Assembly (NCBI GenBank): GCA_937890335.1
Contig: CALBXO010000741.1
Coordinates: 1-51,251, forward strand
From: an uncultured Pseudomonadota bacterium
Lineage (GTDB): Bacteria; Myxococcota_A; Bradymonadia; Bradymonadales; GCA-2716585
Length of the DNA stretch: 51,251 bases
Reading direction: 5' to 3'
This document shows, piece after piece, positions 16,632-49,441 of the stretch. The notes beneath the pieces were generated by a model. It did not search any database. It was not told where the DNA came from and worked only from the letters and a program-made list of their open reading frames with translations. The stretch's first letter is position 1. Each line of letters opens with the position of its first letter. The translations under genes and the position numbers were made by a program.

Positions 16632-16724
16632 CCTGCCGCGTCCAATGGCCTCGCACACCGCCCTCATTTATTGATGGCTCATCGGAGAGCACGAACCCCG
16701 CAACCCCCTGCACATCGGGGCCCA

Positions 16725-16878
16725 CAAGAAAAAGAGAAAAAGGACGCAACGGCGGCATCGGGCGCCCGTGAACTCCTCAAAAGGCGGCGGGGGAAGTCAC
16801 CTAACGCCACGTCGGTTCGGCTCCAATCCCGAGGCCTGGCCGCTGCGCCTGTCAGATTCCGAACGGACGAGGTTCACC
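16725..16878 (+). promoter_or_regulatory. Conserved leader/upstream element, copy B
   Basis: See copy A. GTGAACTCCTC (16768-16778) is complementary to GAGGTTCAC (16869-16877), which lies just upstream of ATG 16879. Confidence 0.5.
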
Positions 16879-17427
16879 ATGTTCAACCGCACCATGCTCT
16901 CGTACATCTCCTGGCTCTCCGGCGTCTTCGGCTGGGTCGCAGGCGCCCTCATCGCCATCGCTTTCGTCAAATACATGGGCCGGGCCTACCCAGGGGCGCT
17001 GCACGTCCAGACCTCCCTCTTCCTCTGGATCGTCACCCCCGGTCTGGGGCGCATTGCGGTCTCCGCCATCGTCCATGGGATCGGGTCGATGACCCTTCCT
17101 GCGCAAGAGCGCGGGGCCGCCTGGCTGCGCATGATGAGCATCGGCGCGGCGTCGCCCGTCATGTTCCTGGCGCTCCTGACGGTGCAGCTCCGACCAACCC
17201 TCCTGGACCACGACCTCCTCCAACCCATGATCGAGTTTCATGAGATCGTCGGCGCCCTCGTGCTCGGCACCTGGGCCCTGGGATTCTTCTGCGCCACCCT
17301 CGCCGGGCATTTGACCGATCTGCAGTGTGAGCGGCTGGACGCGCCTCAGGAGGCTGCGCGGCACGAGAGCCTGGGCAATCCCGCGCGGCACACGGGGGCC
17401 CACGGCGTGCTCGCCAATGTCGCCTGA
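16879..17427 (+). CDS. Four-TM membrane protein, tandem paralog 3 of 3
   Basis: I take the start at the internal ATG 16879 (MFNRTMLSYISWLSGVFGWVAGALIAIAFV...). The first codons and the upstream 16 nt are nearly identical to paralog 1 (GAGGTTCACCATGTTC). Confidence 0.8.
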   Translation: MFNRTMLSYISWLSGVFGWVAGALIAIAFVKYMGRAYPGALHVQTSLFLWIVTPGLGRIAVSAIVHGIGSMTLPAQERGAAWLRMMSIGAASPVMFLALLTVQLRPTLLDHDLLQPMIEFHEIVGALVLGTWALGFFCATLAGHLTDLQCERLDAPQEAARHESLGNPARHTGAHGVLANVA

Positions 17428-17591
17428 CAACCCAGTGATCTCGCAATCCAAGATCCCCTCTCTCCAATCCGAGACATTGCTACTCTGGGTCCCAGTGAAA
17501 ACAGACAGTGACGACGTGGGGCAGGTGGCACATATGTTGTACTACCTGGCCGGGAAGCCAGGCTGCTGAGGTCTTTGGAGGACGAGAAGTA

Positions 17592-23330: not shown

Positions 23331-23331
23331 G

Positions 23332-25752
23332 ATGACGGCACGACGGCGACGGCTCATCTCGAGCCTCAAATGGGGGGGGCTGGTCTCCTCCACCCTCATG
23401 GCGCTCTTCCTGGTGTGGGTTGTCGCCGTCGAGTTCCCGGTCGAAATGCTCGAGGAGACCGCGTTCACCTCCGTCCTGGTGGTGGACCGAGATGGACAGC
23501 CGCTGCGGGAAGTCCTGGGCACCGGTGACCGCCGGGCCCGGTGGCTGAAGCGGGGCGAGATCGCCAGCGACGTGGTGCTCGCGACGATTCATGCAGAGGA
23601 CAAGAGATTCCACGAACACGACGGTGTCGACCCCGTCGCCGTCACCCGATCCATCTGGTACAACCTGCGCCGACAGCGGCTGGTCACCGGCGCGTCCACA
23701 CTGACGCAACAGACGGTAAAGCTCGTGATGCCCAGGGGCCGCAGGGATGTGGCGGCCAAGGCCATGGAGGCCATCTGGGCGGTACGCCTCGAGCGGACGC
23801 TGAGCAAGGACGAGATCCTCGAGCAGTACCTCAACCGAACGCCCTATGGGCACCAGCGGTTCGGGATTGAGGCCGCCGCGCGCCTGTACTTTGGCAAGTC
23901 CGCGTCGCGTCTGAGTCTGGCGGAGGCCACGCTCCTGGCAGGGTTGCCGCAGGCTCCCAGCGCCAACGATCCCTACCGCCACTTTGAGCGCGCCCGAAAG
24001 CGCCAATTGCTGCTGCTCGGTCAGATGCTCGAGCGGGACGCCATCAGCCAGGGCGCCCACGACCGCGCCGTCGCGGAGCGGATCGTCCTTCAGCCCAAAG
24101 ACGGGGTGCTCCGGGCGCCTCACTTTGCCCAGCACGCGCTGGACAGCTGCCCACGCGTGGAGCGGTCCAAGGGCTGCGTCGCCGAGGTTCGCACAACGCT
24201 GGATCTCCAGCTTCAGACCAAAGTGGAAGGCATCGTCCGGACCCAGCTGCGCGAGCTCAAAGACAAGAACGTCAACCAGGCGGCGGTGGTGGTGCTCGAC
24301 AACCGCACGGGGAAGGTCCTGGCCTGGGTCGGCAGCGACGACTACTTCGACGCAGCGCGGCTCGGGGCCAATGACGGCGTCACCGCCCGCCGCCAGCCAG
24401 GCTCCACGCTCAAGCCCCTCGTGTACGCACTTTACTTCGAGCGGGGTGGCTCACCTGCGGACCTGATCGCCGACCTCCCCACTGAGTTTCCCACCAAGGA
24501 GGGCGTGTACGTCCCGCAGAACTTCAGCCGCACCTACCGCGGGCCGATCAGCGTGCGCGACGCGCTCGGCAACTCGCTCAACGTTCCTGTGGTTGCCGTG
24601 GCGGCCGAGCTCGGCCCCAAGGCCATCCTGGATCGTCTCCACGCGCTGAACTTCCACACCATGGACCAGGAACCGGATCACTACGGCCTGGGCATTGCCC
24701 TTGGCGACGGTGACGCTCGCCTGCTCGACCTCGCCGGCGCCTACGCCGCGCTGGCCCGTGGCGGCGAGTACATCGAACCCAATTGGCTGATGGACGCGCG
24801 GCCGCGGCGGCGGCAGGTCATCTCCCCGGAGGCGAGCTACCAGATCCTGGACATCCTGGCCGATGACGACGCCCGCGCGCTGAGCTTTGGTCGCGCCGGC
24901 GTCCTGGCGCTGCCCTACCGCGTCGCGGTCAAGACGGGCACGAGCACGCATTTCCGCGACGCGTGGACCATCGGCACAACCCCGGATTTCACCGTGGCGG
25001 CATGGACCGGCAACTTCGACGGCGCGCCGATGCACCGCATCAGCGGCACCCGCGGCCCCGCGCCGATCCTTCGGCACGTCTTCCAAGCCCTCTACCCCCA
25101 CGCGGCCGGACCCGGCGACGTGCCGTGGTTCACGACGCCCCGCGGCGTGGAGCAGCACCAGGTCTGCGCCTTCAGCGGCCAGCCCGCCGGCCCCCAATGC
25201 TCCCATCGCCGCCTGGAGGTGTTCGCCCACGGCCGTCGCGGCGCGTCGGGCGCCATGGGCATTGACGGACACCACACGCCCGGCGCGGACACCTGCCAGA
25301 TGCACGTCGCGCTTCCCATCGACAAGCGCAACGGCCAGCGCGCCACCGCCAGCTGCGACCCCGCCTTCGTCGAGACCGCCGTCTTCCATCGCGTGCCGCC
25401 GGCGTGGCAGGAGTGGGCGCTCGAACAAGGCCTCGCGCCCCCGCCGGCCGGCTACTCGCCGCTGTGCGGCCCCAACCTCAACGCGGACGCGCACTCTGAG
25501 CGCCCCTACATCGCGCACCCACTGGACGGGGACGAATTCCTGCTCACCGGCGCGCCCCACGACAACGCGCGTTCCATGCCGATGCGCGCCCTCTACGACG
25601 GCCCAGAAGATCTAACCTGGTACGTGGACGGGAAAGCCATTGGCACCGTCGATCGCCCCTTCATGACGCGCTGGATGATGACCCGCGGCCCCCACACCGT
25701 CGGCGTCGGACGAGGCGGAATCGAGACCAGCGTGCGCATCGAAGTGCGCTGA
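23332..25752 (+). CDS. pbpC: Penicillin-binding protein 1C (bifunctional glycosyltransferase/transpeptidase)
   Basis: The GT51 motifs are HAEDKRFHEHDGVD and GASTLTQQ. The transpeptidase motifs are SxxK (GSTLKPLVY) and KTG (VKTGTS), followed by a C-terminal PBP1C-type extension. The start is 1 nt after the alpha-2-macroglobulin stop. Confidence 0.93.
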   Translation: MTARRRRLISSLKWGGLVSSTLMALFLVWVVAVEFPVEMLEETAFTSVLVVDRDGQPLREVLGTGDRRARWLKRGEIASDVVLATIHAEDKRFHEHDGVDPVAVTRSIWYNLRRQRLVTGASTLTQQTVKLVMPRGRRDVAAKAMEAIWAVRLERTLSKDEILEQYLNRTPYGHQRFGIEAAARLYFGKSASRLSLAEATLLAGLPQAPSANDPYRHFERARKRQLLLLGQMLERDAISQGAHDRAVAERIVLQPKDGVLRAPHFAQHALDSCPRVERSKGCVAEVRTTLDLQLQTKVEGIVRTQLRELKDKNVNQAAVVVLDNRTGKVLAWVGSDDYFDAARLGANDGVTARRQPGSTLKPLVYALYFERGGSPADLIADLPTEFPTKEGVYVPQNFSRTYRGPISVRDALGNSLNVPVVAVAAELGPKAILDRLHALNFHTMDQEPDHYGLGIALGDGDARLLDLAGAYAALARGGEYIEPNWLMDARPRRRQVISPEASYQILDILADDDARALSFGRAGVLALPYRVAVKTGTSTHFRDAWTIGTTPDFTVAAWTGNFDGAPMHRISGTRGPAPILRHVFQALYPHAAGPGDVPWFTTPRGVEQHQVCAFSGQPAGPQCSHRRLEVFAHGRRGASGAMGIDGHHTPGADTCQMHVALPIDKRNGQRATASCDPAFVETAVFHRVPPAWQEWALEQGLAPPPAGYSPLCGPNLNADAHSERPYIAHPLDGDEFLLTGAPHDNARSMPMRALYDGPEDLTWYVDGKAIGTVDRPFMTRWMMTRGPHTVGVGRGGIETSVRIEVR

Positions 25753-27208: not shown

Positions 27209-28680
27209 CGCCGCACGCAGCAGCGGCGTGGGCCAGATGCGCAGCGGTCCTGGCGCTCGCCGGGACCCTCGCCGGGTGTCCGGTTGGGCAGCGGGTGGAG
27301 GACCGGCAGGCGTCGGTCATGCCGGCGATCGTCTCCTACAAGGTGCAGGTCCGACCGCGGTCCGTGGCGGTCGTCATGGACGTGCGGCGGCCCCAGTCCG
27401 GCGACCTCGTCGTGGCGCTGCGCGACGGCAGCGACACCTGGACGCGCATCTACGACATCCAAGCCCGCGCCGGGGAAGAAATCCTGGAGGTCGTCGCGAC
27501 CGACGATCCCGGTCACTGGCGCGTCCGAGGCGCCAACTCTCGCCGCATCAGCATCCGCTACCTGCTCGTCGCCGAGGATCATGCGCGGGTCTACACGGGC
27601 GACACAGCATTTCTGGCGTATGGGCGCTCCCTGCTGCTGACACCGGTCGGCGCCGCCAGGGAGGCCACCGACGAGGTGTGGATCGAGGTTGAGGCCGGCG
27701 ACTGGCCCGTGGCCACCGGATGGGGCAGGCCCGACGCCAGCTTCAAGAGCTACGACGCCGTCGTCGACGCCGTGCTGCTGGCCGGTGACTGGAAGTTGAC
27801 GGACCTCTCGCTCGATGGCGTCAGAGTGGGTATCGCCATCCGGGGACCGTGGGCCACGGACTCGGGCGCTGTCACCGGCATTCGGGGGCTGCTCCGCGCC
27901 ATCGCCGAGTCCCAGACGCGTGTGTTTGGACGCTACCCGTCGGAGTCACTGCTCCTGGTGGTGCTGCCCGAGGAGACGACCACGCTGATCGCAGGGCCCA
28001 GATCGCTGGTGCTGCGGTGCCCCCAGGACGAGCAGCCGGAGAAGGATCTGGAGCTGGCATTGCAGATCGCCGAGGCACATTTCCGCCTGTGGAATGGCAC
28101 GCGGTTCTCGGCGCGCCAGTCCGATACGGCGCCGTTCCGGCAGGGACACGCCGCCTGGTTCACGGAAGGCGCCAGCGCGTGGTACGGGCTGCGTACCGCC
28201 TACGAAGTCGGGCTCTTGTCCGCAGACCAACTGCTCGCCATGCTCAACGTGTGGATTGCCGCGTACTCGGCCCATCCGGACGCGACCCAAGCCACCATGG
28301 GGGACTTTGAGACACGCTATCGCCAGGACCCGGGCATCGCACAGCTCGCCCGCCTCAAGGGCGCACTGCTCGTGGCGCTGATGGACATCGAGCTACGGGC
28401 AGACAGTGGCGGCGCGCGCAGCTTCGACCTCGTCATGCGGCAGGTCGCCTTTGACTTCACCGGGGCCAAGCTGGGCTACACCACCAAGGACATCCAGAAG
28501 ATCGTTGTCGGCGTGGGGGGTGCCAAATGGGAGACCTTTTTCACCCAGCACGTCGTCGGGCGCGAGCCCCTCCCCCTGACCCGTCTGGACCGGGGAGGGC
28601 TGATCGTCCTGCGCGGCGAGGACGGCGTCCCAAAAGTCACGCAGGCCACCGAGCTCTTCCAGGACTGGTTCCGCCCATGA
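27205..28680 (+). CDS. Lipoprotein, peptidase-M61-like with a degenerate active site (pseudo-peptidase)
   Basis: The lipobox is LAGTLAGC. The layout ...IAEAHFRLWNGTRF...WFTEGASAWYGLRTAYEVGLLSADQLL parallels M61 HEFFHxWN...WFSEG.t.YY, but both His residues of HExxH are replaced. The ATG overlaps the tyrS stop (ATGA). Confidence 0.6.
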   Translation: MTPHAAAAWARCAAVLALAGTLAGCPVGQRVEDRQASVMPAIVSYKVQVRPRSVAVVMDVRRPQSGDLVVALRDGSDTWTRIYDIQARAGEEILEVVATDDPGHWRVRGANSRRISIRYLLVAEDHARVYTGDTAFLAYGRSLLLTPVGAAREATDEVWIEVEAGDWPVATGWGRPDASFKSYDAVVDAVLLAGDWKLTDLSLDGVRVGIAIRGPWATDSGAVTGIRGLLRAIAESQTRVFGRYPSESLLLVVLPEETTTLIAGPRSLVLRCPQDEQPEKDLELALQIAEAHFRLWNGTRFSARQSDTAPFRQGHAAWFTEGASAWYGLRTAYEVGLLSADQLLAMLNVWIAAYSAHPDATQATMGDFETRYRQDPGIAQLARLKGALLVALMDIELRADSGGARSFDLVMRQVAFDFTGAKLGYTTKDIQKIVVGVGGAKWETFFTQHVVGREPLPLTRLDRGGLIVLRGEDGVPKVTQATELFQDWFRP

Positions 28681-29588
28681 CGTGTCGCTGCGCACCACGA
28701 TCCACCCGAATACCGTGGGCGATGGTACAAGTCCTGGCCGTCGGGTTGGCCCTCTGCTCCGTGGCCGCAACCGCCGTCGCCGGCGAACCCATCGTTCGGC
28801 ACCATGTACTCCAGAGCGCCGCGCTCGGACCCCAGAACGTGGTCCTCGTCCTGCCCCCAGACTACGACAGCTCGTCCACAAGGTACCCCACGGTGCTCGC
28901 CATGGCCGGGCTCGGCGAGTCTGTCAGGGGCAACAAGGCCGGCGCCTATGGCTGGGTGGAGAAGTACGGCGTCGTGCCGGCGATGGCCGCACTTCACCGC
29001 GGCAGATTGACGCGTGCGGACTTTCAAGACCTCGTCACGGACGAGGCGCTCGCCCGCTACAACGCAGCGCTCGCCAAAGAGCCGTACCGCGGCGTCATCC
29101 TGGTCTGTCCCTACCCCCCCAATCTGAACAAGGGGATCCGGCAGCTCGACGGCTACGAGCGGTTCTGGTTCGATGAGCTCATGCCGTGGGTGGATGCGGA
29201 GTTCCGCACCACGTCTACATGGGGCATCGGCGGCATCTCGCTCGGCGGTCTGACCGCCACGCACGTGGGCTTTGGCAACCCCGGCAAGTTCGCCGCGATC
29301 AGCAGCCAACAAGCATCTGTGACCCGCTCCAGGCCACGGCTGGTCAAGCGCGCCGAGGCCCACCTGGAAGCGCTCAAGTCCACCCGCCTCAACATCGCCA
29401 CCAGCCACCGTGACGGCTACCGCAAGGCGCTGACGCAATTTCACGAGGACCTCCTGCGCATCGGTCTGCCGCACCGGTTCGTCATCTTGCAAGGCGCGCA
29501 CAACAAGCCATTCGTGAAGGGTCCAGGGAGCCTGGAAATCCTCCTCTTCCACGACCGCGCGCTGCGCGGCTCGGATGTGCTCCCGTGA
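28677..29588 (+). CDS. Secreted alpha/beta-hydrolase, esterase family (esterase D/enterochelin-esterase-like)
   Basis: I take the start at ATG 28677, which overlaps the upstream TGA. The signal-like N-terminus is MVQVLAVGLALCSVAATAVAG. The nucleophile elbow is GISLGG, and YPTVLAMAGLGES resembles the family's N-terminal block. Confidence 0.6.
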   Translation: MTCRCAPRSTRIPWAMVQVLAVGLALCSVAATAVAGEPIVRHHVLQSAALGPQNVVLVLPPDYDSSSTRYPTVLAMAGLGESVRGNKAGAYGWVEKYGVVPAMAALHRGRLTRADFQDLVTDEALARYNAALAKEPYRGVILVCPYPPNLNKGIRQLDGYERFWFDELMPWVDAEFRTTSTWGIGGISLGGLTATHVGFGNPGKFAAISSQQASVTRSRPRLVKRAEAHLEALKSTRLNIATSHRDGYRKALTQFHEDLLRIGLPHRFVILQGAHNKPFVKGPGSLEILLFHDRALRGSDVLP

Positions 29589-30199
29589 CCGACTCCTACG
29601 AGGTTCCCGACGCGGAACTGGTGGAGGAGATCCCCAAAATCAAGGGCTCGCGCTTCCTCGCATCGGTGGCGCCTGTGGACAGCGAAGCGGAGGCCGCGGA
29701 GCACCTCGAACGCGCCCGCAAAGCGGAACACGCCGCCCGACACCATTGTTGGGCGTACCGACTGGGTCCCGCGGGGGACGTGACGCGCTCCAGCGACGCG
29801 GGCGAGCCGTCTGGCTCGGCGGGCAAGCCGATTCTGGCCGCCATCGAGGGACGCGGACTGACCAACGTCAGTGTCGTCGTCACGCGGTACTTTGGCGGCA
29901 CCAAGCTCGGCGTGGGCGGCCTGGTCCGCGCCTACGGCGACGCCGCCGCAGCCGCCCTGGCGCAGGTACCCACGCGGGTCATCGTGCCCACGAGAATCGT
30001 GGACATCAGCGTGCCGTACGACCAGCTCGGGACCCTGGAGACGATCGTCGCCCGCGAAGGTGTTGAGCGCCCGGAGGGCGTGTATGGCGACTTCGTGACG
30101 TTTGCCTTCGAGATCCCCGTGGCAGACGCGCAAGGGTTCGCCGCCCGCGTCTTCGACGCGAGCAGCGGGCGAATTCAGGCGGAGGTTCGGGAAAAGTAG
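29585..30199 (+). CDS. yigZ: IMPACT/YigZ family protein
   Basis: The GTG start overlaps the upstream TGA (GTGA). The motifs are IKGSRFLA, HHCWAYRL, SSDAGEPSGSAGKPIL and VVVTRYFGGTKLG. Confidence 0.85.
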   Translation: MTDSYEVPDAELVEEIPKIKGSRFLASVAPVDSEAEAAEHLERARKAEHAARHHCWAYRLGPAGDVTRSSDAGEPSGSAGKPILAAIEGRGLTNVSVVVTRYFGGTKLGVGGLVRAYGDAAAAALAQVPTRVIVPTRIVDISVPYDQLGTLETIVAREGVERPEGVYGDFVTFAFEIPVADAQGFAARVFDASSGRIQAEVREK

Positions 30200-33130: not shown

Positions 33131-33532
33131 TCACGCCGCGTCCGTCGGCTCCCGGCTGCGGCCACGCGCGATGTGTTCGGCGACCAATCTGGGCAGCGCT
33201 CGGGTGTCAAATGGCTTGGCGACGTAGTCGTCACAGCCGGCATCCAGCGCCCTGGCGCGGTCGCTGGCCATGGCGTAGGCGGTCAACGCGATGATGATGA
33301 CGCTGTCCATGTCGTCCCGCTCGCGGAGAAGCCGGGTCAGGGTGAGGCCGTCCATGCCCGGCATTTGAACGTCCATCAGAATCACCTGCGGGACCCACTC
33401 GGAGAGCACCTCAAGGGCCTCGTCCGCGTTGTAGGCCACGCGAACTTCGTACCCGTGAACCTCCAGAAGAAAGTGCGCCAGCTTGGCGTTTGCCGGATGA
33501 TCGTCCACCACCAGAACTTGTGCGCCCGTCAT
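33131..33532 (-). CDS. Single-domain response regulator (CheY-like receiver)
   Basis: MTGAQVLVVDDHPANAKL...ILMDVQMPGMDGLTL...ALTAYAM...DDYVAKPF. The ATG overlaps the kinase stop (ATGA at 33529-33532). Confidence 0.9.
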   Translation of the reverse strand: MTGAQVLVVDDHPANAKLAHFLLEVHGYEVRVAYNADEALEVLSEWVPQVILMDVQMPGMDGLTLTRLLRERDDMDSVIIIALTAYAMASDRARALDAGCDDYVAKPFDTRALPRLVAEHIARGRSREPTDAA

Positions 33533-35519
33533 CGGTGTAGCCCTCCAGTCTCGCTCCACAGCGCCTTGAGTTGGGAGATGATTTCGCCGCCCGTTCCCCT
33601 GCCCTTTCGGACCACCGCCTGGGCGTTGCTCTGGAGCGTCTCCAGGTCCTCAGCGCTCAGATCCATCGCGGTCCACACGAGGACCGGGACCGATTCACAC
33701 CCGGGCACGGCCCTGAACCGCCGCAGGAACTCGAAACCGTCGACCCCCGGCATCATCAGGTCCAGAACCACGACGGTGGGGATCGCGTCGCGCACTGCGA
33801 CAAGCCCTGACTCCGCGCCCGCGTGGTAATTGCCCTGAAGACCCACTTGATCCAGATGGACCCGCATCGCCAACAAAGCGTTGGGGTCGTCGTCCACCAC
33901 GAGAACGTAGTTCGGGGTGGTGCGCTGGTTCGTCACCCCGGCCCTGGAAAGAGCCTCGACGAGCCGCTCGCGCTCCAGCGGCTTTCGCAGCACGTCCTGG
34001 ACTGCAAACCCTGCCCCAAGGTTGTCATCGGCCACCACGGACGTGACTATGACCGGCACCGCCTCATAATGGGGCTGCCCCCTCAGCTCACGCAGCACGT
34101 CGAGCCCGCTTCCGTCGGGGAGTAAAATGTCGAGCGTGACCGCGTCAAAACGACGCCGACGGGCCAACTCCAACGCCTGCGCCGCTGTGCTGGCCGTCTC
34201 GATCTCGTACCCCTCGCCAACGAGGATGGCGACAATGAAGTCGAGGTCGCGGGGGTCGTCCTCCACAACGAGAATTGCCGGCGCAGACGGACTTGCTCCC
34301 GGCACCACCCGCCGCGCCGGCAGGCTGCGACGGATCCGTGAAATCCGTGGCAGAACCGCGTAGAAAACGCTGCCCACTCCCGGCTCGCTGTGCACCCCCA
34401 CCGTGCCTCCCTGTGCCTCGACCAGGCGGCGGGTCAGCGCGAGGCCCAGACCCGTCCCGCCGTGCCGCTTGGTGGACCCGGCATCCAGCTGGTGGAACTC
34501 GGAAAACAGATGAGGAATGTCCTCGCTGGCAATGCCAACGCCCGGGTCTTCGACCTCCAACCGAAAGTAGCTCGCCCCCTCGGCCACCACACGCACGAGG
34601 ATCTCGCCCTCGCCGGGCGTGAACTTGAGCGCGTTTGCAAGGTAGTTGTAGAGCACCTGTTTGAACCGGGACCCATCGAGTACTACCTCGTCGACGTCGG
34701 GGTCGACGGACGTCGCAATGGATAGACCTCGCTCGCTGGCCCACAAAGAGAGCACGCCCAGAACTTCGTCGACGAGCTCGGTGACGCGCACGGGCCTTGG
34801 ATGGAAGTCCAGCTGGCCCGCGTCGACTTTGGACAGGTCGAGCACATCGTTGATCAGCTTGAGCAGGTGTTGGCCGCTCGCGAGAATGGCCTGCGTGAAT
34901 TCCGCGTAGCGCGGCGAGTCGGGGGAGACCAGTCCGTCGTGGAGAATCTCAGCAAAGCCATTGATTGCGTTGAGGGGCGTGCGCAGCTCGTGCGACATAT
35001 TGGCCAGGAACTGGCTCTTGAGCCGACTCGCGTCCTCAAATCGCTGTTTGTCCAGCTCGAGGCGATCGCCGCGCGAACGCTGCCGCTCAAACGCAGCCTG
35101 TTTGGCCTCGATGTAGGATTCGCCGAGGACGGACATCGCCCAGTCAAAATAGGCCCCATGTACAAGAGAACCCGTGACAGGCGATCGGGATCGTCGCTGT
35201 ACGCACCGACCATCAGCGGGGTGAGCACCTGCGAGACCGACCGGACCAGCCGGTACCAGGCGGCGTACTCCACACCGACGGCGGCGTACATCCCGCCCTG
35301 CTCGCAGAGATTCGTCTCGTAGGCCGACCAATCACCGCTGGCGATCGCGTCGTCCAGCCGCTGGCGACCCTCAAGGTTCTGCTGATCCAGGACCTCCTGG
35401 GGCATGGCCTCGATGATGGGCCCAAAGTGCGAATCGCTCCGGGCCGACGCCAGCGCCGCTGCATTGAGCGCGTCGTGGTTGGCCAGATAGACTCGCCAGA
35501 AATCATCCCGGCCGACCAT
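33529..35519 (-). pseudogene. Hybrid sensor histidine kinase (N-terminal helical sensor, HisKA, HATPase_c, REC, REC), split by a frameshift as written
   Basis: Frame B (33529-35331) carries the H-box NMSHELRTPLN, the ATPase G-box GGTGLGLALTRRLVEAQGG and two receivers (ILVVEDDPRD..., VLVVDDDPNAL...DLMMPGVDG). Its first 60 aa or so are Arg-rich junk. Frame A (34854-35519) gives a plausible N-terminal sensor (MVGRDDFWRVYLANHDALNAAAL...WYRLVRSVSQVLTPLMVGAYSDDPDRL), then degenerates. The two frames swap plausibility near 35150-35200. Confidence 0.7.
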
Positions 35520-35623
35520 GTCTTGCGACCCAGGCCACGACGAAAACTACCCATTCTTGCTCCTGCGCGACGCCCATTGTGCTGACGTGAAGCGCCACGC
35601 GTCCGAACCCTGGCCTTGTGAGG

Positions 35624-37887: not shown

Positions 37888-38415
37888 TCAGCCTTGCGCC
37901 TTGTACCGCGCCGCTTGTTCGACGTACCGCTTCCACGAGTATTCGATCCACTCCCTGTCCTTGTCCGAGAGTTGGCGCACCACTCGCCCCGGCGATCCGA
38001 GGATGAGCGAGCCCGGCGGGAACTTCTTGTTCATGGTCACCACGGCGCCCGCCCCGACGATCGACCAGTCGCCGATCTCCGCGTTGTCCAACACCACGCT
38101 GCCCATCCCGATGATGCAATTGCTCCCCACCTTGGCGCCGTGCAGCGTCACATTGTGACCGATGGTCACCTGGTCGCCCACGCAGGCGTCCGACATTCCG
38201 TCGGTCATGTGGATGACGGTGCCGTCCTGTACCGAACACCGCGCACCGAGAACGATCTTCCCGTCGTCACCGCGCAGGGTCGTGTTGGGCCAGATGGAGC
38301 ACTCGGGCCCCACGGTCACATCGCCAATCAGGACCGCGCGCCGATGCACGAACGCGGAAGGGTGCACGTCGGGGACGAGGTCCCCGAGCGCTTCGAGCCA
38401 AGGCTTGTCGTTCAT
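37888..38415 (-). CDS. Gamma-carbonic-anhydrase-family / hexapeptide-repeat protein (YrdA/PaaY-like)
   Basis: It has left-handed beta-helix hexapeptide repeats (LIGDVTVGPECSIWPNTTLRGDDGKIVLGARCSVQDGTVIH...GHNVTLHGAKVGSNCIIGMGSVV). The protein is 175 aa. Confidence 0.88.
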   Translation of the reverse strand: MNDKPWLEALGDLVPDVHPSAFVHRRAVLIGDVTVGPECSIWPNTTLRGDDGKIVLGARCSVQDGTVIHMTDGMSDACVGDQVTIGHNVTLHGAKVGSNCIIGMGSVVLDNAEIGDWSIVGAGAVVTMNKKFPPGSLILGSPGRVVRQLSDKDREWIEYSWKRYVEQAARYKAQG

Positions 38416-38417
38416 GA

Positions 38418-39149
38418 TCAGTCCGTGAAGAAGCCGCCACCGCCGACGGTCAGGCGAAAATAGCCGCCGGTGAACGCGACGCCCTCGAGGTTCTGAACGT
38501 CCTCTTCGAGATCGTTCTGCCAGGAGCCGCCTGCGACCGACGAGATGAAACCGAGCTCTGCGCCCACAATGAGTCCACCGCCGCCGGACCCATCCTCATC
38601 CTCCTGCAGCAACAGCGCCTGCACGCCGATGCCGAGCTCATAGTAGAAGAAACCCGTGACGAAGGTCTCCGACTCGCCGGGGCCGATGACCGCGTCGCCA
38701 AAGGTCATGTTTCGGGACGCTTGTCGGTTGCTGATCTGCACCTCGATGCTTGCGCCACCCACACCGGCATACGGGTAGAGAATCGCGTACTTCTCGCGGA
38801 GAATGTTGTACCCGAGGCTGAAGCCGCCGCCGCCGCCGCCCATGGCGACCGACCCCTTCTCAGTCTGGTAATCGGGGTGGACAAAGCCAAACCCATTGCC
38901 CCCGAGGATGACGCCTCCGACGTAGATCTTGCCGCCTCCGCCGATGCTGGCGGCCGTGCTGTTGATACCCGGCCCCGCGCCCAGGAGTGACTCTTCGGCC
39001 AGCACCAGGTCCAGGTTGAGGACCCCACCGCTCAGCACACCGGGGCTGAAGTGCCCAAACCCGCCTACCGTCGGCACGTCTTCCGCGGCCGCCACGCACG
39101 CCACGAGCAGAAGCGACGCAGAGATCGCCAAGAATGAGAGTTTCTTCAT
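38418..39149 (-). CDS. Secreted or lipoprotein-type glycine-rich protein, unknown function
   Basis: I take the start at the internal ATG 39147-39149 (MKKLSFLAISASLLLVACVAAAED, with a possible lipobox LVAC). It has multiple GGGG runs and alternating hydrophobic beta-like segments. It is divergent from the MopE-repeat operon. Confidence 0.75.
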   Translation of the reverse strand: MKKLSFLAISASLLLVACVAAAEDVPTVGGFGHFSPGVLSGGVLNLDLVLAEESLLGAGPGINSTAASIGGGGKIYVGGVILGGNGFGFVHPDYQTEKGSVAMGGGGGGFSLGYNILREKYAILYPYAGVGGASIEVQISNRQASRNMTFGDAVIGPGESETFVTGFFYYELGIGVQALLLQEDEDGSGGGGLIVGAELGFISSVAGGSWQNDLEEDVQNLEGVAFTGGYFRLTVGGGGFFTD

Positions 39150-39298
39150 ACTCGTATTTGGTTGCGAACCCCCAGATCGTGTCAAGGCACCCAGCGCAAC
39201 CCATCAGGCACCTGGACGTTTGTATAGGCGACACACTTGCCGGTATACAGTACCCTCACGTGCGCTCAAATGGGTCTTTAAACATGTAGGGAGTCACC

Positions 39299-43839
<4,541 letters not shown>

Positions 43840-43843
<4 letters not shown>

Positions 43844-46800
43844 AGAAAACCATCGTGACCCTCAGCGTCGCCCTTGCGGCGCTGTCGGGTTGCTCCAGCG
43901 ACATCACCGGCCCCACGCCTTCGCTACCCGGCGAACCGGGCACCGACAGCGCCCCAGCGTCGCCGGGATTTGTCTGCAACGAGCAGATCGAGACCTGGGT
44001 GACGTTGACCGGTCACGGGTTCAGCCCGTTGCTCGAAGACGCCATCGCCGACGATGCGGACCCCTCCATCGTGCTGCCATCCGTCCAACTCTTCCTGGCG
44101 CAGGACCTCAATGGCGACTTGATCCAGGACGCCGAGGCGGTCGTCATCACCGGCTCAGAGGACGCCGACAGCCCTGTCCGATGGGAGGACAGGAACACCT
44201 TGCGCTTCCGCGTCACCCCCGAACATGCCCTGCCCGCGGGCGTCTACGGCGTCGTGGTCGTCAACCCCGACGGCAGGCGCGGCGTGGCGCCCGCCGCTTT
44301 TGCCGCAGTCGACAGGCCCACCGTGACCGGCATTGTGGACGAGCTCGCCTGCGTCGCCCAATCGGGCCGCAGCGCCGTCGTCAGCGGCACAGGATTCCTC
44401 GTCCGGGGTGACACGCTTCCGCAAGTCACCGTAGGTGATGTTGTCTACCAGCCAACCGGTGCCGAGGGGTGCACCGACCTACCCAAGGTCTTTGGCACGT
44501 GGACAATGTGCACCTCGCTGTCCATCGACATCGCGCAGGACGACTTTGCGCCCGGATTGTTCGACGTGTCGGTCCAGAACCCGGCGCCAGCCGCGTGCGG
44601 CACGCTACCCGACGACGGCGTGCAACTCACGGTCGTCCCGCCGCCCGCCGTGGCCGACATTCAGCCCGAACCCACATGCTCGGAGCAGCTCGACTACGAG
44701 ATGTCCGTCACCGGCACCGGCTTTGTCCGCATTGGTGGCGACTCGGCGGCGCTGCCCACCGTACAGATCGGCGACATCACGTACGACGCCACGGAGGCCC
44801 GCGGCTGCACGGACATCGATTCGCTGGCGGTTCTTGAGGCGCAGACGTGCACGGAGCTGGTCATCGCCGTACCCGCGGGAGACCAACCGCCCGGCAACCA
44901 GCCGGTGCAGGTCACCAATCCGCTCCCCGCAGGCTGCGGGTCCACCGAGGCGGTGGACCTCACGGTCGTACCCCCGCCCCAGATTGACTCCATCGATCCA
45001 CTGCCCGTTTGCACGGCCCAGGCGGACACGGTGCTCAACCTGCGAGGTCGCGACTTTCTCACCGTCGGTGACGCCAACCCGACCGCCCTCATCGAGGGTG
45101 AGGAGTACCCTGCCACAGCCAGCGACTGCGAACCCGTGGAGGGCCCCGCAGTCGCGACACAGACCTGCCAGTCCCTGTTGATCACGGTCCCCGCGGGCAG
45201 CTTTCCAGACGGCGGCGCCGTCGAGGTCGCCGTGCGCAACCCCGACCCCGCCGCCTGTACCACGGTGGAGACCGCGACTCTCATCACGGTCCCGCCGCCG
45301 GCGCTCACGTCTCTGGACGCCAATTTCGCGTGTCTGGAGACCGCCATCGGGACCTCCACGCTCCACGGCGAGGGCCTCCTGCGAATTGGGGATGAGGTCC
45401 CCGAGGTCACAGTCGGGGGCCAACCCGCGACGGTCGAATCCCTGGACGATTGCACGCCGCTCGACGGCGTGGAGGGGGTCGATGTCTGCCGCCAGGCGAC
45501 GCTTGTCCTGCCCATGGGGGCCACCGAGCAGGAGCTCGATGTGGTCGCGACCAATCCACTGCCGGCCGGCTGCAGCAGCGATCCCATTACCCTGCGCAAC
45601 TTCGCGCCCCCGACGGTCCTCAGCGCGGCGCCAGTGCTCTTCTGCAACGGGGACGGCGGCACGGGGATGAACATCACGGGCACCGGCTTCTACGCCGTGG
45701 ACGACGCGCTGCCGTCCATGGTCGTCGGTGAGACCGTCGTCCTGGCGGACGCGGTGAGACCGTCGTCCTGGCGGACGCGGTGGAAGGTTGCGAGACCGTG
45801 GACGGACTCAGCGCCGAGGTCCGAAACTGCACCATGTTGACCGCCACGCTCCCGGCGAACTCTGCGGCCCCGGATGTCTACGAGATCGCGGTGATCGGCG
45901 CCGCCCCGCTGGCCTGTCCTCAGGTGGACCCAGGTCCCCAGGTCGTCGTCGCCGGCGCGCCATTCATCGAGTCCTACGAGCCGCCCGCCGTGTGCCGCGG
46001 TCAGTTTGACGGCGTGATGACGGTGCGCGGCACAGGTTTCTTTGAGATCGACGGGGCGTCGCCCACGGTGACTGCCAACGGACAGCCCGCGGAGGTGACC
46101 GGCTCCGTGGACTGCGTCGCCGTGGACACGGCGCCGGGTGTCGTCGCGTGCAACGGCATCGACATCCTCGTGCCCGAGTCGCTTCGCGACGAAGACCTCC
46201 TCGTGGCGCTGACCAACCCGGCCCCAGCCGACTGCGAGACCGCGACCATCGAGGTTCCGTTGGAGGAGCCCCCCGTCATCGACGACGTTCAGCCACGCAA
46301 GATCTGTGACGCCGGCGGCTCGCTGGAGCTGACGGGTGACCATTTTGCCGACGGAATGGTGGTGCGTCTGGACGGCGTGGACGCCGAGTCTGTGGAAGTC
46401 CATTCGCCGCAGTCGGCTACCGCGACCTGGTCCGGCCCCCTCACCCCAGGACTCGCGACGCTGGAGGCGCAGAACCCGTCGGGCTGCATGGCGACCTTCG
46501 AGACCGTGATTCGCATCACGGAAGGTCCGGTCGTCTTCTACGTGGACCCGCCGGTGCTCTACAACGGCGTCGCCATCCAGGTCACTGTCTTCCTTGGCAA
46601 CCTGTACGGAGGGTCGGTGACGGAGGTGATGCTCACGGGTCCGGACGACAGCGTCCACGAGCTGGAGTTTACGTTTGACTCCGAGCGCCCCGGACGCGTC
46701 CAGGCCATCGTCCCCGCCGGACTGACCGCCGGGTTGTACGACGTGACGTTGGCGGACGACGTGGACTGCCTGGGAACCACCGAGGACCTTGTGCTGGTCA

Positions 46801-48806
46801 CGGACGAGACCCGCGTCGCCCTCAGCGCGATCGCCCCGCCGTTCGGCTGGACCTCGGCGATCACCGGCGTGACGCTCACCACGCCGGACCCGATTCCCAA
46901 TGATTTGTCCCCGTTCCTCGCCACGCCCCGCGCGTACATCAACCCGTCTGACGCCCAACCCGGCGACATCGCCACGGAGATCAAAGCGCTGGCGTTTGTC
47001 GGGCCGCAGGAGCTGACGGGCATCGTCCCCGACGGACTCCCGCCCGGCACCTATGACGTGATCGTCGTCAACCCCGACGCGACAGTGGGTGTCCTGGACG
47101 CCGGCTTCACGGTGACCGTGGACCCGCCGCCCATCGTGACCGGGGTGAACCCTGGCTCCTGGGAGACCAACGAGGAGGCGCTCGCGTTCCGCATCGACGG
47201 CAACAACTTCACCGACGTGACGGTGACCGCAGAGTGCGTGGACTCGGCGGGCAACGCGCTCCCGGCCCCCAACTTCACCATCGGTGCGGTGACACCGCAG
47301 ACCATCGACGCCACGGTGAACACGTCCTCCCTGTCCCACCTGTCGGTCTGCGCCCTGCAGGTGACCAATGCCGACGGCTCGTTTGACGAGTTCAGCCCCG
47401 TCACCGTGACGAACCCGGCGGGTAATTTCGTCTCCTTCCGCACCGGCCCTCAGCTGGAGACCGCGCGTCGTGGCCCAGCCATGGTCGGCGGCGCGCCGGC
47501 TCGGACCACGCGCATTCTCTACGCCCTGGGCGGGGACGACGGGACCGCCGACGGGGCCCTGTCCACAGGCGAGTACGCCACGCTCGACCGATTTGGTCAG
47601 CCGCAGGTCTGGCAACCCTTGCCGGGGTCACTGCCCACGCCGCTGGCCCAGACCCGCGCGGTCCGGGTCCGGGACTTTGTGTATCTTCCCGGCGGACGCG
47701 ACGCGGACGGGGCCTCAAGCGATGTCTGGCGCGCCCAGATCCTCGACCCGCTGTTCGTGCCCAGCATCGACAGCGTCGACTTCGACTTCCCTGAGGGTGG
47801 CGAGGACGGCTTCCTGGAGGGTGTCTACTACTACCGGGTGTCTGCGGTCCTCGCCGGTGACAATCCTGCCAACCCCGGCGGCGAGACCCTCGCCTCCGAG
47901 GCGCAGCCGCTGTTTGTCCCGAGCCTCGACCGTGCGCTGCACATCGCAATCGGCTGGACGCCGGTGGACGACGCTGTCTCCTACCGCATCTACCGCACCG
48001 AACTGCCGGACGCGCAGGCCGGTCAAGAGCAACTTCTGGCCGAGATTCCCGGTGACGAACTGGCCTACGTGGACGACGGTCTGACGCCGTTCCTGGACAC
48101 CACGGGGCCCCTGCCGATTGGCGCGCTCGGGAACTGGCGCTCCGTCGCGACCCTCTCCACCGCCCGGTACGACCACGGTGTGGCGGTCAGCGCAGACCTC
48201 GAGGACCCAGCGGTCCACCACATCGTCATCGCCGGCGGCACGGACGGCGTGGACCTCAACGCCGACGTGGATGTCATCACCGTGACTGTGAATGGACCCC
48301 GCGATCAGACCGTTGGGCTCAGCACCACGACCGACTACCTGGACGAGCCGCGCACCGGACTGGAAGTCGTGGTCGCCGACCCGACCAACTCCAGCCTCCT
48401 GGCGCCGGACAGGGCGTTCGTCTACTTCCTGTCCGGGTCCGGAGACGGCGACATCACGCAGACCGACTTCGCGCCCCTGATGCCCGGCGGAGCGCTCGGC
48501 ACGCTGGACACCACGGAGCGGCTGCGTCCATTCCGGGCCCACTACGTCGCCGCGGTGGCCAACAACACGCTGGTCGCCGTGGGAGGCCAGGGTGACTCGC
48601 CGAGTTCGACGGGCCAGAGCAGCGGCCTGGCTGGACGGGACGGCACCTTGGACAACTGGAACTCCCTCGGCAACACCGGTCTTCTGGACCGGGTGCGCAT
48701 GGGTCGCGCCGTGTTTGGCGGTTTCCTCTACATCGGGGGCGGCACTGGCCCCATGGACGGCGCAACCCGCGCCGTTGAGTTCTCCATCTTGGGAGGTGTC
48801 CCGTGA
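43840..48806 (+). pseudogene. Giant IPT/TIG-repeat plus Kelch-like lipoprotein gene, split into two ORFs (43840-45840 and 45780-48806) by a 26-bp tandem duplication
   Basis: The GTG start overlaps the upstream TGA and the lipobox is MKKTIVTLSVALAALSGC. About 10 Ig-like modules of roughly 95 aa each share the pattern P..(I/V)....P...C......(L/V)..(T/R)G.GF.......P.V.(V/I)G........(D/G)C.......C..L...(L/V)P. The C-terminal third has Kelch-like blades. Removing one copy of the 26-mer fuses the two ORFs in frame to give ...GETVVLADAVEGCETVDGLSAEVRNCTMLTATLP, which restores the module pattern. Confidence 0.8.
45727..45778 (+). repeat. Exact 26-bp tandem duplication (2 x GGTGAGACCGTCGTCCTGGCGGACGC), followed by GGTG microhomology
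   Basis: Copy 1 is 45727-45752 and copy 2 is 45753-45778, identical base for base. The next 4 nt, GGTG, repeat the unit's start. Because 26 is not a multiple of 3, the reading frame shifts and a TGA follows at 45838-45840. Confidence 0.95.
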
Positions 48807-49441
48807 CGATGCGCATTTTGACCGCAACCGGAGCGCTGCTGGCGGTGCTCGCTTTCTCCAGCGCCGCCCTCGCTGACAAGCCCGGCTACTTCGTCGCGCC
48901 CCACGTCGGCGTCCTGGTGCCTCAGCTGGCCACGGAGCTCGACAGCTCCGTCGTGTTTGGGCTCGAACTGGGCTATGTGGTGCCCGTGGACATGGGCGGC
49001 TTTGTGCGCCCACTCGGCTTTGAGTTCGACGTCATGGGAACCCTGCCCGGCGCCAGCGGTGGCGGCACGTCCGAGCAGCTCGGCGAGGACGGCGGCACCT
49101 ACGACTACGATGTCCGCGTGACGATGGTGATCCTGGAGCTGACGGCGAGCTGGCGTTTCGACATCACCGACATCGTCGGCGTCTACGTCCAGGCTGGACC
49201 GCGGGCCTACTTCATCCAGACCACCGTGGACGCCAGTTCCGGCACCGCCGACTTCGGGCGTCGCACACAGGGTGACAACGCCTTCGGCGGCGTGTTCGCG
49301 GTGGGCGGCGACCTCACGCTCGGTCCCGGCGCGGTCTTTCTGGCTGCCGAGTACGCGGGTAGCGACCTGAAAACCCGCCTCGCGGGGGACGCAAACACGG
49401 GTGCGCTGGCGTTTGACCTGGGTTACCGCATCCGCTTTTGA
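48803..49441 (+). CDS. Outer-membrane beta-barrel protein (OmpW/OmpA-barrel-like)
   Basis: The signal peptide is MRILTATGALLAVLAFSSAALA-DK. It has alternating amphipathic beta-strand segments and a C-terminal beta-signal ending in Phe (...AFDLGYRIRF). GTG 48803 overlaps the upstream TGA, and ATG 48809 is an alternative start. Confidence 0.75.
   Translation: MTMRILTATGALLAVLAFSSAALADKPGYFVAPHVGVLVPQLATELDSSVVFGLELGYVVPVDMGGFVRPLGFEFDVMGTLPGASGGGTSEQLGEDGGTYDYDVRVTMVILELTASWRFDITDIVGVYVQAGPRAYFIQTTVDASSGTADFGRRTQGDNAFGGVFAVGGDLTLGPGAVFLAAEYAGSDLKTRLAGDANTGALAFDLGYRIRF

What the first reader, a model, noticed from the sequence alone, without database searches (positions are those of the whole stretch)
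45727..45778. Exact 26-bp tandem duplication splits one IPT/TIG-Kelch lipoprotein gene of about 1646 aa into two ORFs
GGTGAGACCGTCGTCCTGGCGGACGC occurs twice back-to-back (45727-45752 and 45753-45778) and is followed by GGTG, which is 4-nt microhomology. Because 26 is not divisible by 3, ORF 43840-45840 runs out of frame into a TGA. The second ORF (45780-48806) starts at a GTG inside what should be a domain. Deleting one copy gives ...MVVGETVVLADAVEGCETVDGLSAEVRNCTMLTATLPAN... This reproduces the module pattern of the flanking Ig-like repeats (compare VTVGGQPATVESLDDCTPLDGVEGVDVCRQATLVLPMG). The event could be a recent slippage mutation that inactivates the gene, a reversible on/off switch for a surface protein, or an assembly artefact.
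Basis: seen in the sequence. Interest (0 to 1): 0.7.

Follow-up and report, generated by a model that had tools for sequence, protein, structure and literature searches.

The report
26-bp duplication breaks surface-lipoprotein gene
A perfect back-to-back copy of 26 bases has knocked a very large cell-surface lipoprotein gene of an uncultured Baltic Sea bacterium out of frame; the mutation is real and recent but of an ordinary kind, and there is no evidence that it acts as a designed switch.

Summary
GGTGAGACCGTCGTCCTGGCGGACGC occurs twice in tandem (45727-45752 and 45753-45778) at 100% identity. It is bounded by a 5-nt microhomology, CGGTG, not the 4 nt reported. It is the only exact tandem duplication with a unit of 12 bp or more in the 51 kb; about 5e-8 are expected by chance. 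Removing one copy fuses ORF 43840-45840 and ORF 45780-48806 into one 1646-aa frame. That protein has a lipoprotein signal, about nine IPT/TIG-like modules and a C-terminal Kelch-type beta-propeller. Dozens of homologs are single proteins that align without a gap across the junction, so one copy is ancestral. The break lies in the middle of module 6. The same two-copy allele is present in at least three other metagenome assemblies (MEGAHIT k141 and k127 contigs), so an assembler artefact is very unlikely. The merged protein is absent from the public collection. None of 80 relatives' loci has a frame-breaking duplication or a split gene, so this is a one-off event. Best reading: a recent replication-slippage duplication produced a loss-of-function allele that is the consensus in this population. 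It could revert in principle, as in pneumococcal cap3A phase variation, but no intact allele was found. Interest is low.

The parts
45727..45752 (+). Copy 1 of the 26-bp unit GGTGAGACCGTCGTCCTGGCGGACGC. It encodes G-E-T-V-V-L-A-D-A in the native frame.
45753..45778 (+). Copy 2 of the unit, identical to copy 1. This is the inserted 26 nt, which shifts the frame by +2 (equivalent to -1).
45726..45782 (+). Full extent of the repeat, including the 5-nt microhomology CGGTG (45726-30, 45752-56, 45778-82). This microhomology marks the ancestral slippage sites, which lay 26 nt apart.
   Evidence: TRF; run of 31 matches at period 26
43840..45840 (+). ORF1 (666 aa). It contains native residues 1-639 of the lipoprotein: the signal peptide and lipobox plus 5.5 Ig-like modules. 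A 27-aa out-of-frame tail follows (codons 45757-45837), then TGA at 45838-45840.
   Evidence: the exact protein P0121 is in the public collection
43840..43893 (+). Lipoprotein signal peptide, (V/M)KKTIVTLSVALAALSG|C, with lipobox L-S-G-C and Cys18.
   Evidence: read from the translation; most relatives have the same feature at the start of their ORF
45607..45917 (+). Ig-like (IPT/TIG-type) module 6, residues 590-684 of the repaired protein. The duplication lies in the middle of this module, just before its conserved Cys.
   Evidence: module HMM and alignment
45780..48806 (+). ORF2 (1008 aa), equal to residues 639-1646 of the repaired protein. It has no signal peptide, and no Shine-Dalgarno-like motif precedes its GTG. 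Its frame is open only from 45732.
   Evidence: exact protein P0122
47424..48803 (+). C-terminal six-bladed Kelch-type beta-propeller with an inserted domain of about 100 aa.
   Evidence: AlphaFold2 pLDDT 95.5, pTM 0.93; the top 50 Foldseek PDB hits are all Kelch-type six-bladed propellers: natural Kelch domains (LZTR1, KLHL12, KEAP1, KLHDC10), the Kelch-repeat protein ESP and designed SAKe propellers; best E 7e-13, probability 1.0; Pfam Kelch_1 is below threshold
39299..43843 (+). Upstream gene: a 1514-aa protein with 14 MopE-type putative metal-binding motifs. Its stop overlaps the ORF1 start by 4 nt (GTGA), which implies the same operon.
48803..49441 (+). Downstream partner gene: an outer-membrane beta-barrel protein of 212 aa (PF13505). 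Its start overlaps the ORF2 stop by 4 nt. The pairing with the lipoprotein gene is conserved in relatives.
   Evidence: 52 of 75 evaluable relatives

Best explanation
This is a genuine, evolutionarily recent, spontaneous tandem duplication. Shown: the ancestral gene carried CGGTG twice, 26 nt apart, inside the coding sequence of Ig-like module 6. Inferred: during replication the nascent strand slipped back from the second CGGTG to the first, and the intervening 26 nt were copied again. Because 26 is not a multiple of 3, translation leaves the native frame after Val639, adds 27 unrelated residues and stops at 45838-45840. Shown: the lipid-anchored N-terminal stalk is cut inside a domain. The remaining 1007 residues, which include three to four more Ig-like modules and the Kelch-type propeller head, are no longer attached to a signal peptide. 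ORF2 has no recognisable ribosome-binding site. Inferred: the gene is a loss-of-function allele, a pseudogene in the making. Translational coupling to the conserved downstream outer-membrane beta-barrel partner is probably reduced. Shown: the allele is the consensus in every public assembly that contains the locus. Established knowledge: loss of one copy by the same slippage mechanism would restore the gene exactly, so the lesion can revert in principle. Nothing indicates that it evolved as a switch.
For: The duplication is exact and far beyond chance. The 5-nt microhomology sits at both boundaries. The one-copy reconstruction gives an uninterrupted 1646-aa ORF. More than 20 homologs of 1645-1708 aa cover 99-100% of it as single proteins. 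They align without a gap across the junction, for example P0001 ALPSLVIGETLFPADAVDGCIQVDG. The repaired module 6 matches the internal repeat HMM over positions 2-94 at 9e-29, and the break falls in the middle of the module. The GC3 phase flips at the duplication. There is only one lesion: no other stop or frameshift occurs in 4.9 kb, and the window sequence keeps all 27 family-invariant residues of the propeller region. The propeller also models at pLDDT 95.5. Together these indicate a recent event. The event is not an assembler artefact: identical two-copy alleles occur in ENA assemblies ERZ1283799 (k141), ERZ27056333 (k141) and ERZ964670 (run ERR2206771, k127). Those contigs have different ends and small differences elsewhere. 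Both split products are in the collection on 4-5 contigs, and the merged product is absent. Other long genes in the window are intact (PolA, alpha-2-macroglobulin of 1940 aa, PBP1C, TyrRS, RNase Y), so the contig is not riddled with frameshift errors. The event is a one-off: among 80 relatives' loci (757 kb), none has a frame-breaking exact tandem duplication inside the gene, and none has modules continuing in another frame. The GTG of ORF2 lacks the GGAG-like motifs seen before the real starts in the operon.
Against: No raw reads were available, so a minority one-copy allele that was collapsed during assembly cannot be excluded. The public contigs are 99.97-100% identical and may derive from the same or closely related Baltic Sea samples, so 'consensus everywhere' may describe one clonal population. 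Perfect tandem duplications are intrinsically unstable, so a reversible state is mechanistically possible. One haplotype (ERZ1283799) carries an additional 2-bp deletion in the downstream OMP gene. That fits decay of the operon, but it also shows that the duplication has persisted long enough for a second variant to arise. No expression data exist. Loss of function is inferred from architecture and has not been measured.
Confidence: 0.72

Rival explanations
1. The duplication is a reversible ON/OFF switch (phase variation). It turns the surface lipoprotein off, and precise slippage-mediated loss of one copy turns it on again. This would give the population heterogeneity in a surface structure, for example under phage or grazer pressure.
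For: The lesion is a perfect tandem duplication within an ORF, and the rest of the gene is fully intact. This is the architecture of the documented pneumococcal cap3A, cap8E and tts switches (Waite et al. 2001 and 2003, as summarised in PMC11163986 and listed in PMC4292784). The target is a surface-exposed lipoprotein, the typical class of phase-variable gene (general knowledge). The OFF allele is seen in several assemblies.
Against: No ON (one-copy) allele was found. The merged protein is not among about 15 billion sequences. Neither allele was found in JGI metagenomes or in species-representative genomes. There is no recurrence: none of 80 relatives has a comparable frame-breaking duplication or a split gene. 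There are only two copies of a unique coding segment, and the unit has no significant secondary structure (z = -0.44). One haplotype has a second disruptive lesion in the operon, which suggests decay rather than switching.
Confidence: 0.15
2. The duplication is an assembly or sequencing artefact, and the real genome has one copy and an intact gene.
For: The window is a metagenomic contig and no reads could be inspected. All contigs are nearly identical and might come from overlapping read sets.
Against: At least four separately built contigs, with different lengths, ends and assembler k values (k141, k141, k127, plus the 51-kb window), carry the identical junction. With k=127-141 a single k-mer spans the whole 52-bp repeat plus its flanks, so the junction must be present in reads; de Bruijn assemblers collapse repeats rather than create them (established knowledge of the method). 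Other long ORFs on the contig show no frameshifts.
Confidence: 0.05
3. The two ORFs are both functional as they stand. Either they are two separate proteins, or they are joined by programmed ribosomal frameshifting in the 45732-45837 overlap.
For: Both ORFs are long and retain coding-type GC3 bias. They overlap by 61 nt.
Against: ORF2 begins in the middle of an Ig-like domain. It has no signal peptide and no Shine-Dalgarno-like motif. There is no slippery heptamer and no homopolymer of 5 nt or more in the overlap. The perfect identity of the two copies and the absence of this arrangement in any homolog show that the arrangement is not conserved.
Confidence: 0.03

Closest known systems
Tandem-duplication phase variation of Streptococcus pneumoniae capsule genes cap3A, cap8E and tts (Waite et al. 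2001, 2003)
   Same: A perfect tandem duplication arises spontaneously inside an ORF for a surface-structure gene and abolishes function. The gene is otherwise intact, and precise loss of the duplication would restore it (PMC11163986; PMC4022640; references in PMC4292784).
   Different: In pneumococcus, many independent duplications were recovered and reversion was measured. Here there is a single event, no ON allele, no recurrence in 80 relatives, an uncultured environmental bacterium, and a lipoprotein rather than a capsule enzyme. Reversibility is only inferred.
Ordinary microhomology-mediated (slipped-strand) tandem duplications that create frameshift pseudogenes in bacterial genomes
   Same: Short direct repeats (here CGGTG, 26 nt apart) flank the duplicated unit. 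The unit length is not a multiple of 3. There is a single disabling lesion relative to intact orthologs. The two copies are identical, which indicates a recent event.
   Different: Nothing differs in kind. This is simply an unusually clean example in an unusually large gene.
Simple-sequence-repeat contingency loci (Haemophilus, Neisseria, Campylobacter)
   Same: Slipped-strand mispairing changes the reading frame of a surface-protein gene (review PMC4235727).
   Different: Those loci have long arrays of 1-7-nt units that are maintained by selection and conserved among strains. Here there are two copies of a 26-nt unique coding segment, and relatives have no array at this site.
IPT/TIG-Kelch giant lipoproteins of Bradymonadia and Myxococcota, e.g. 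Persicimonas caeni FIV42_20815 (P0010, 2040 aa), unnamed metagenomic orthologs P0002 (53% identity, 1672 aa) and P0004 (51%, 1652 aa)
   Same: The architecture is the same: a lipobox, repeated Cys-containing Ig-like modules and a C-terminal propeller. The OMP beta-barrel gene directly downstream is also the same.
   Different: Those genes are uninterrupted. The closest relative is only 60% identical, so no same-species intact allele is available. The function of the family is unknown.

Membership tests
IPT/TIG domain protein (Pfam PF01833) | Whole-protein score above the Pfam gathering threshold | tested here: met
   36.3 bits against a cut-off of 20.9, E 5.8e-9, on the merged protein. ORF1 alone scores 36.0 bits. 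About nine internal modules were detected with a self-built HMM.
Kelch-repeat beta-propeller | Sequence match to Kelch Pfam models above threshold | tested here: not met
   Kelch_1 scores 16.8 bits against a cut-off of 20.1. PF24681 scores 14.5 against 50. Several homologs do carry precomputed PF01344 or PF24681 hits.
Kelch-repeat beta-propeller | Six-bladed propeller fold superposable on solved Kelch domains | tested here: met
   The AlphaFold2 model has pLDDT 95.5 and pTM 0.93. The top 50 Foldseek PDB hits are all Kelch-type six-bladed propellers: natural Kelch domains (LZTR1, KLHL12, KEAP1, KLHDC10), the Kelch-repeat protein ESP and designed SAKe propellers. E values run from 7e-13 to 1e-10, probability 1.0; TM normalised to the target is about 0.6-0.74 for most hits and below 0.55 for a few.
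Bacterial lipoprotein | N-terminal signal peptide ending in a lipobox [LVI][ASTVI][GAS]C | tested here: met
   KKTIVTLSVALAALSG|C is read directly from the translation. Equivalent lipoboxes occur in most relatives. No dedicated predictor was run.
Frameshift pseudogene (recent) | A single disabling lesion relative to intact orthologs, with the reading frame restored by its removal | tested here: met
Duplication-type phase-variable locus (cap3A-like) | Perfect tandem duplication within the ORF that abolishes the product | tested here: met
Duplication-type phase-variable locus (cap3A-like) | ON (no duplication) and OFF alleles coexist in the population | tested here: inconclusive
   Only the OFF allele appears in 4-5 public contigs, and the merged protein is absent from the collection. 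Neither allele was found in JGI metagenomes or GTDB representatives. Consensus assemblies cannot reveal minority alleles, and reads were not available.
Duplication-type phase-variable locus (cap3A-like) | Recurrent, independent duplications at the locus or in the gene family | tested here: not met
   No frame-breaking exact tandem duplication lies inside the gene, and no gene is split, in 80 relatives' loci (757 kb).
Duplication-type phase-variable locus (cap3A-like) | Precise reversion at a rate well above the background mutation rate | not testable with these tools
   This needs culture or a reporter assay.
Programmed ribosomal frameshift site | Slippery heptamer or homopolymer in the overlap, conserved among homologs | tested here: not met
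   No slippery heptamer and no homopolymer of 5 nt or more in 45727-45840. Homologs are encoded in a single frame.

The most novel reading that the evidence does not exclude
The 26-bp duplication is the OFF state of a reversible duplication and excision switch. The switch would control a giant surface lipoprotein and, through translational coupling, its outer-membrane partner, in an uncultured Baltic Sea bacterium related to Bradymonadia and Myxococcota. The OFF state would currently be swept to high frequency by selection, for example from phage or grazers. This would extend cap3A-type duplication phase variation from a human pathogen to free-living environmental bacteria.
Probability: 0.12. 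Interest if true: 0.5.

Novelty: new member of a known kind. Interest (0 to 1): 0.2.

Why it matters
For annotation, the two ORFs (666 and 1008 aa, both deposited as separate proteins) should be treated as one disrupted gene. The finding is a textbook-clean example of microhomology-mediated duplication caught soon after it happened. It also gives a convenient natural marker, a 26-bp length polymorphism, for tracking this population in the Baltic Sea metagenome series. If read mapping showed both alleles, it would be a rare case of duplication-type phase variation outside pathogens. The gene belongs to a widespread but uncharacterised cassette in Myxococcota-like bacteria, a giant IPT/TIG-Kelch lipoprotein followed by a small OMP beta-barrel, and this natural knockout might help probe its function. 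Otherwise the finding is ordinary.

Tried and rejected
1. Exact-pattern scans that allowed either allele (0-26-nt gap) found no hits in GTDB species-representative genomes or in JGI metagenomes. The species is simply not present in those collections.
2. A protein-based scan of genome contigs found no relative that tblastn confirmed.
3. A focused homolog search with a 190-aa junction-spanning query returned nothing at all, not even the known 60%-identical P0001. The word index is too sparse for short queries, so this negative result is uninformative.
4. The supplement of the Baltic MAG paper, searched for ERR2206771.bin_3 (8.89 Mb) to name the organism, contained nothing. The taxon is inferred only from the named homologs: Persicimonas, Bradymonadaceae and Myxococcales.
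5. A hairpin-promoted slippage idea was rejected. The one-copy sequence folds no better than shuffled sequences (z = -0.44). The two-copy form folds better (z = -2.1) only because the arms are duplicated.
6. Programmed frameshifting was rejected because there is no slippery site.
7. Three ORF pairs (37888-39203 and 33529-35546 on the minus strand, 28455-30199 on the plus strand) were checked as possible further split genes. They are unrelated neighbouring genes.
8. The other exact tandem repeat whose unit is not a multiple of 3 (11 bp, 15980-16004) lies in the spacer or 5' region between paralogous small membrane-protein genes. The GC3 phase does not change there, so it does not break a frame.
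9. A crude GC3-based gene finder was too noisy to use beyond these checks.
Full report
OBSERVATION. The sequence at 45727-45778 is two identical, adjacent copies of GGTGAGACCGTCGTCCTGGCGGACGC. Tandem Repeats Finder reports 45726-45782 with period 26, 2.2 copies, 100% matches and no indels. An exact-match scan finds 31 consecutive matches at period 26 starting at 45726. At this base composition about 5e-8 such events are expected in 51 kb. This is the only exact tandem duplication with a unit of 12 bp or more in the window. The local sequence also contains a weaker 15-bp quasi-repeat, GTCGTCGGTGAGACC, so it is rich in short direct repeats.

EFFECT ON THE READING FRAMES. ORF 43840-45840 (666 aa) and ORF 45780-48806 (1008 aa) lie in different frames and overlap by 61 nt. 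Removing one copy gives a single 1646-aa ORF without an internal stop. In the present sequence ORF1 is native up to Val639 (codon 45754-45756). It then reads 27 unrelated residues (RPSSWRTRWKVARPWTDSAPRSETAPC) and stops at 45838-45840. ORF2 corresponds to residues 639-1646 of the repaired protein. Its frame is open only from 45732. An independent GC3 frame plot shows the coding phase switching from the ORF1 frame to the ORF2 frame at about 45780.

WHAT THE GENE IS. The repaired protein begins with a lipoprotein signal, KKTIVTLSVALAALSG|C. An HMM built iteratively from one internal module finds about nine Ig-like modules of roughly 95 residues with a conserved Cys pattern. Pfam calls these IPT/TIG, at 36.3 bits against a cut-off of 20.9. 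The last 460 residues (47424-48803) were modelled with a 40-sequence alignment at pLDDT 95.5 and pTM 0.93. The top 50 Foldseek hits in the PDB are all Kelch-type six-bladed propellers: natural Kelch domains (LZTR1, KLHL12, KEAP1, KLHDC10), the Kelch-repeat protein ESP and designed SAKe propellers. The model also carries an inserted domain of about 100 residues. By sequence alone the Kelch signal is below threshold.

THE OPERON. The gene sits in an operon-like arrangement. An upstream 1514-aa protein has 14 MopE-type metal-binding motifs, and its stop overlaps the lipoprotein start by 4 nt. A downstream 212-aa OMP beta-barrel gene (PF13505) has a start that overlaps the lipoprotein stop by 4 nt. 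The pairing of lipoprotein and OMP is conserved. It is seen in the three ortholog contexts inspected and in 52 of 75 evaluable relatives' loci. The MopE neighbour is not conserved.

ONE COPY IS ANCESTRAL. A search with the repaired protein returned 159 homologs. More than 20 of them are single proteins of 1645-1708 aa that cover 99-100% of the query. The repaired module 6 (residues 590-684) matches the module HMM over positions 2-94 at 9e-29. The break falls in the middle of the module, directly before a conserved Cys. The best named relatives are from Persicimonas, Bradymonadaceae and Myxococcales. The closest relative is only 60% identical, so no same-species intact allele is available. The lineage is an inference from these names.

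REAL OR ARTEFACT. Both split products exist verbatim in the public protein collection on 4-5 contigs, while the repaired product does not. The contigs retrieved are ENA ERZ1283799 k141_650712, ERZ27056333 k141_398958 and ERZ964670 (run ERR2206771 of PRJEB22997, k127_618350). All carry the two-copy allele. PRJEB22997 is the Baltic Sea water-column metagenome project. The contigs differ in length and end points. One has two SNPs near its end, and one has a 2-bp deletion elsewhere, so they are separate assemblies. With k=127-141 a single k-mer spans the whole 52-bp repeat and its flanks, so the junction must be present in reads; this rests on established knowledge of de Bruijn assemblers. Other long genes in the window are intact: PolA (889 aa), alpha-2-macroglobulin (1940 aa), PBP1C, TyrRS and RNase Y. 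Three suspicious ORF pairs proved to be unrelated neighbours. An artefact is therefore very unlikely.

ONE-OFF OR HABIT. I fetched 80 loci encoding relatives from JGI metagenomes. In the 52 loci with enough upstream DNA, the genes are single ORFs of about 900-2130 aa, and most have a lipobox. Nine lacked an obvious signal peptide. None of these showed Ig-module coding that continued in another frame. The same exact-duplication scan that detects the 26-bp event found only two things in 757 kb: in-frame repeats of 12, 15 or 18 bp inside these genes, and arrays outside them. The family is therefore not prone to this kind of lesion.

MECHANISM AND CONSEQUENCE. Shown: the duplication, its microhomology, the frameshift, the mid-domain break, the absence of a signal peptide on ORF2 and the lack of an SD-like motif before its GTG, and the intactness of the rest of the gene, including all 27 family-invariant propeller residues. 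Inferred: replication slippage between the two CGGTG sites created the duplication, which is the established mechanism for such events. Also inferred: the product is a truncated lipoprotein stalk without its propeller head, so function is lost, and premature termination 3 kb upstream weakens translational coupling to the OMP partner. The identity of the two copies and the single lesion indicate a recent event. The extra 2-bp deletion in the OMP gene of one haplotype hints that the operon may be decaying. Frame restoration would need one of three things: loss of one copy, a compensating +1 or -2 indel within 45732-45837, or a gain to four copies (+78 nt).

RIVALS.
- Reversible phase variation is the main alternative. 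Its architecture is exactly that of the pneumococcal cap3A, cap8E and tts switches (Waite et al. 2001 and 2003). However, no ON allele was found, the event is not recurrent, and no feature suggests evolved hypermutability. A hairpin hypothesis was not supported (z = -0.44).
- Programmed frameshifting, or two functional genes, is rejected. There is no slippery site, the break is in the middle of a domain, and the arrangement is not conserved.

VERDICT. The feature is a real, recent, ordinary slippage duplication that inactivates a large IPT/TIG-Kelch surface lipoprotein gene in an uncultured Baltic Sea bacterium. It is a new instance of a well-known kind of mutation. Interest is low (0.2). Its value lies mainly in correct annotation and as a population marker. 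Read mapping is the decisive test for the minority reading that it is a switch.

Noticed in passing
window 48898-48899 (compare L003 = ENA ERZ1283799 k141_650712): One other assembly of the same locus carries a 2-bp deletion (GCGC to GC) inside the downstream OMP beta-barrel gene 48803-49441, in addition to the same 26-bp duplication. The deletion shifts that gene's frame, so it is called as 174 aa instead of 210 aa. This is a second disruptive variant in the same operon, and it suggests either population heterogeneity or decay.
   Followed up: partly
window 43840-49441; L006, L007, L008 and L009-L088: A giant IPT/TIG-Kelch lipoprotein gene followed directly by a small OMP beta-barrel gene (PF13505), often with a 4-nt overlap, is a conserved two-gene cassette. 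It is present in 52 of 75 evaluable relatives. The OMPs are 41-45% identical to the window's OMP. The function is unknown. The OMP may anchor or export the lipoprotein.
   Followed up: partly
window 132-273: A 38-bp tandem array with 3.7 copies at about 90% identity. The unit is GCCATCGGGGACCGCCGGGCATGCCACCCAGCAGGCAG and contains the palindrome GGCATGCC. It lies just after a plus-strand stop codon (99-101), near the contig start and at the 3' end of minus-strand ORF 247-1317. Its nature was not determined.
   Followed up: no
window 39299-43843: A 1514-aa protein with 14 copies of the MopE-type putative metal-binding motif (PF11617, E 6e-95). It is translationally coupled to the lipoprotein gene by a GTGA overlap. 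This neighbour is not conserved next to the orthologs inspected.
   Followed up: partly
window 15378-17427: Three tandem paralogous genes for small membrane proteins (186, about 180-221, and 219 aa, sharing motifs such as GLGR..AS..LH.IG and RG.AWLRGLAIA). An exact 11-bp tandem repeat, GCCAGCGCGCG with 2.3 copies, lies at 15980-16004 in the spacer or 5' region of the second gene. The GC3 phase does not change there, so it does not break a frame.
   Followed up: partly
window 17508-25752: A bacterial alpha-2-macroglobulin (1940 aa, with MG and bait-region domains) is immediately followed by a PBP1C-type bifunctional transglycosylase/transpeptidase (806 aa). From memory, this is a known conserved gene pair. 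Both genes are intact.
   Followed up: no
window 5459-7684 (minus strand): A 741-aa protein whose only Pfam hit is an N-terminal eCIS core domain (PF13699, E 3e-14). The rest of the protein is unannotated.
   Followed up: no
window 47424-48803 (model m51d01594ad9a): The Kelch-type propeller carries an inserted all-beta domain of about 100 residues, roughly residues 115-215 of the model, containing YYYRVSAV...WTPVDDAVSYRIYR. The motif looks fibronectin-III-like, but the insert was not searched separately.
   Followed up: no
L005 (ENA ERZ964670, run ERR2206771), window 44474 and 44495: Two SNPs (C>T and G>T) relative to the window lie within 30 nt of that contig's end. They may be contig-end errors or strain variants. 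PMC12529799 reports that the largest Baltic MAG (8.89 Mb) is ERR2206771.bin_3, from the same run. It may be this organism, but this was not verified.
   Followed up: partly
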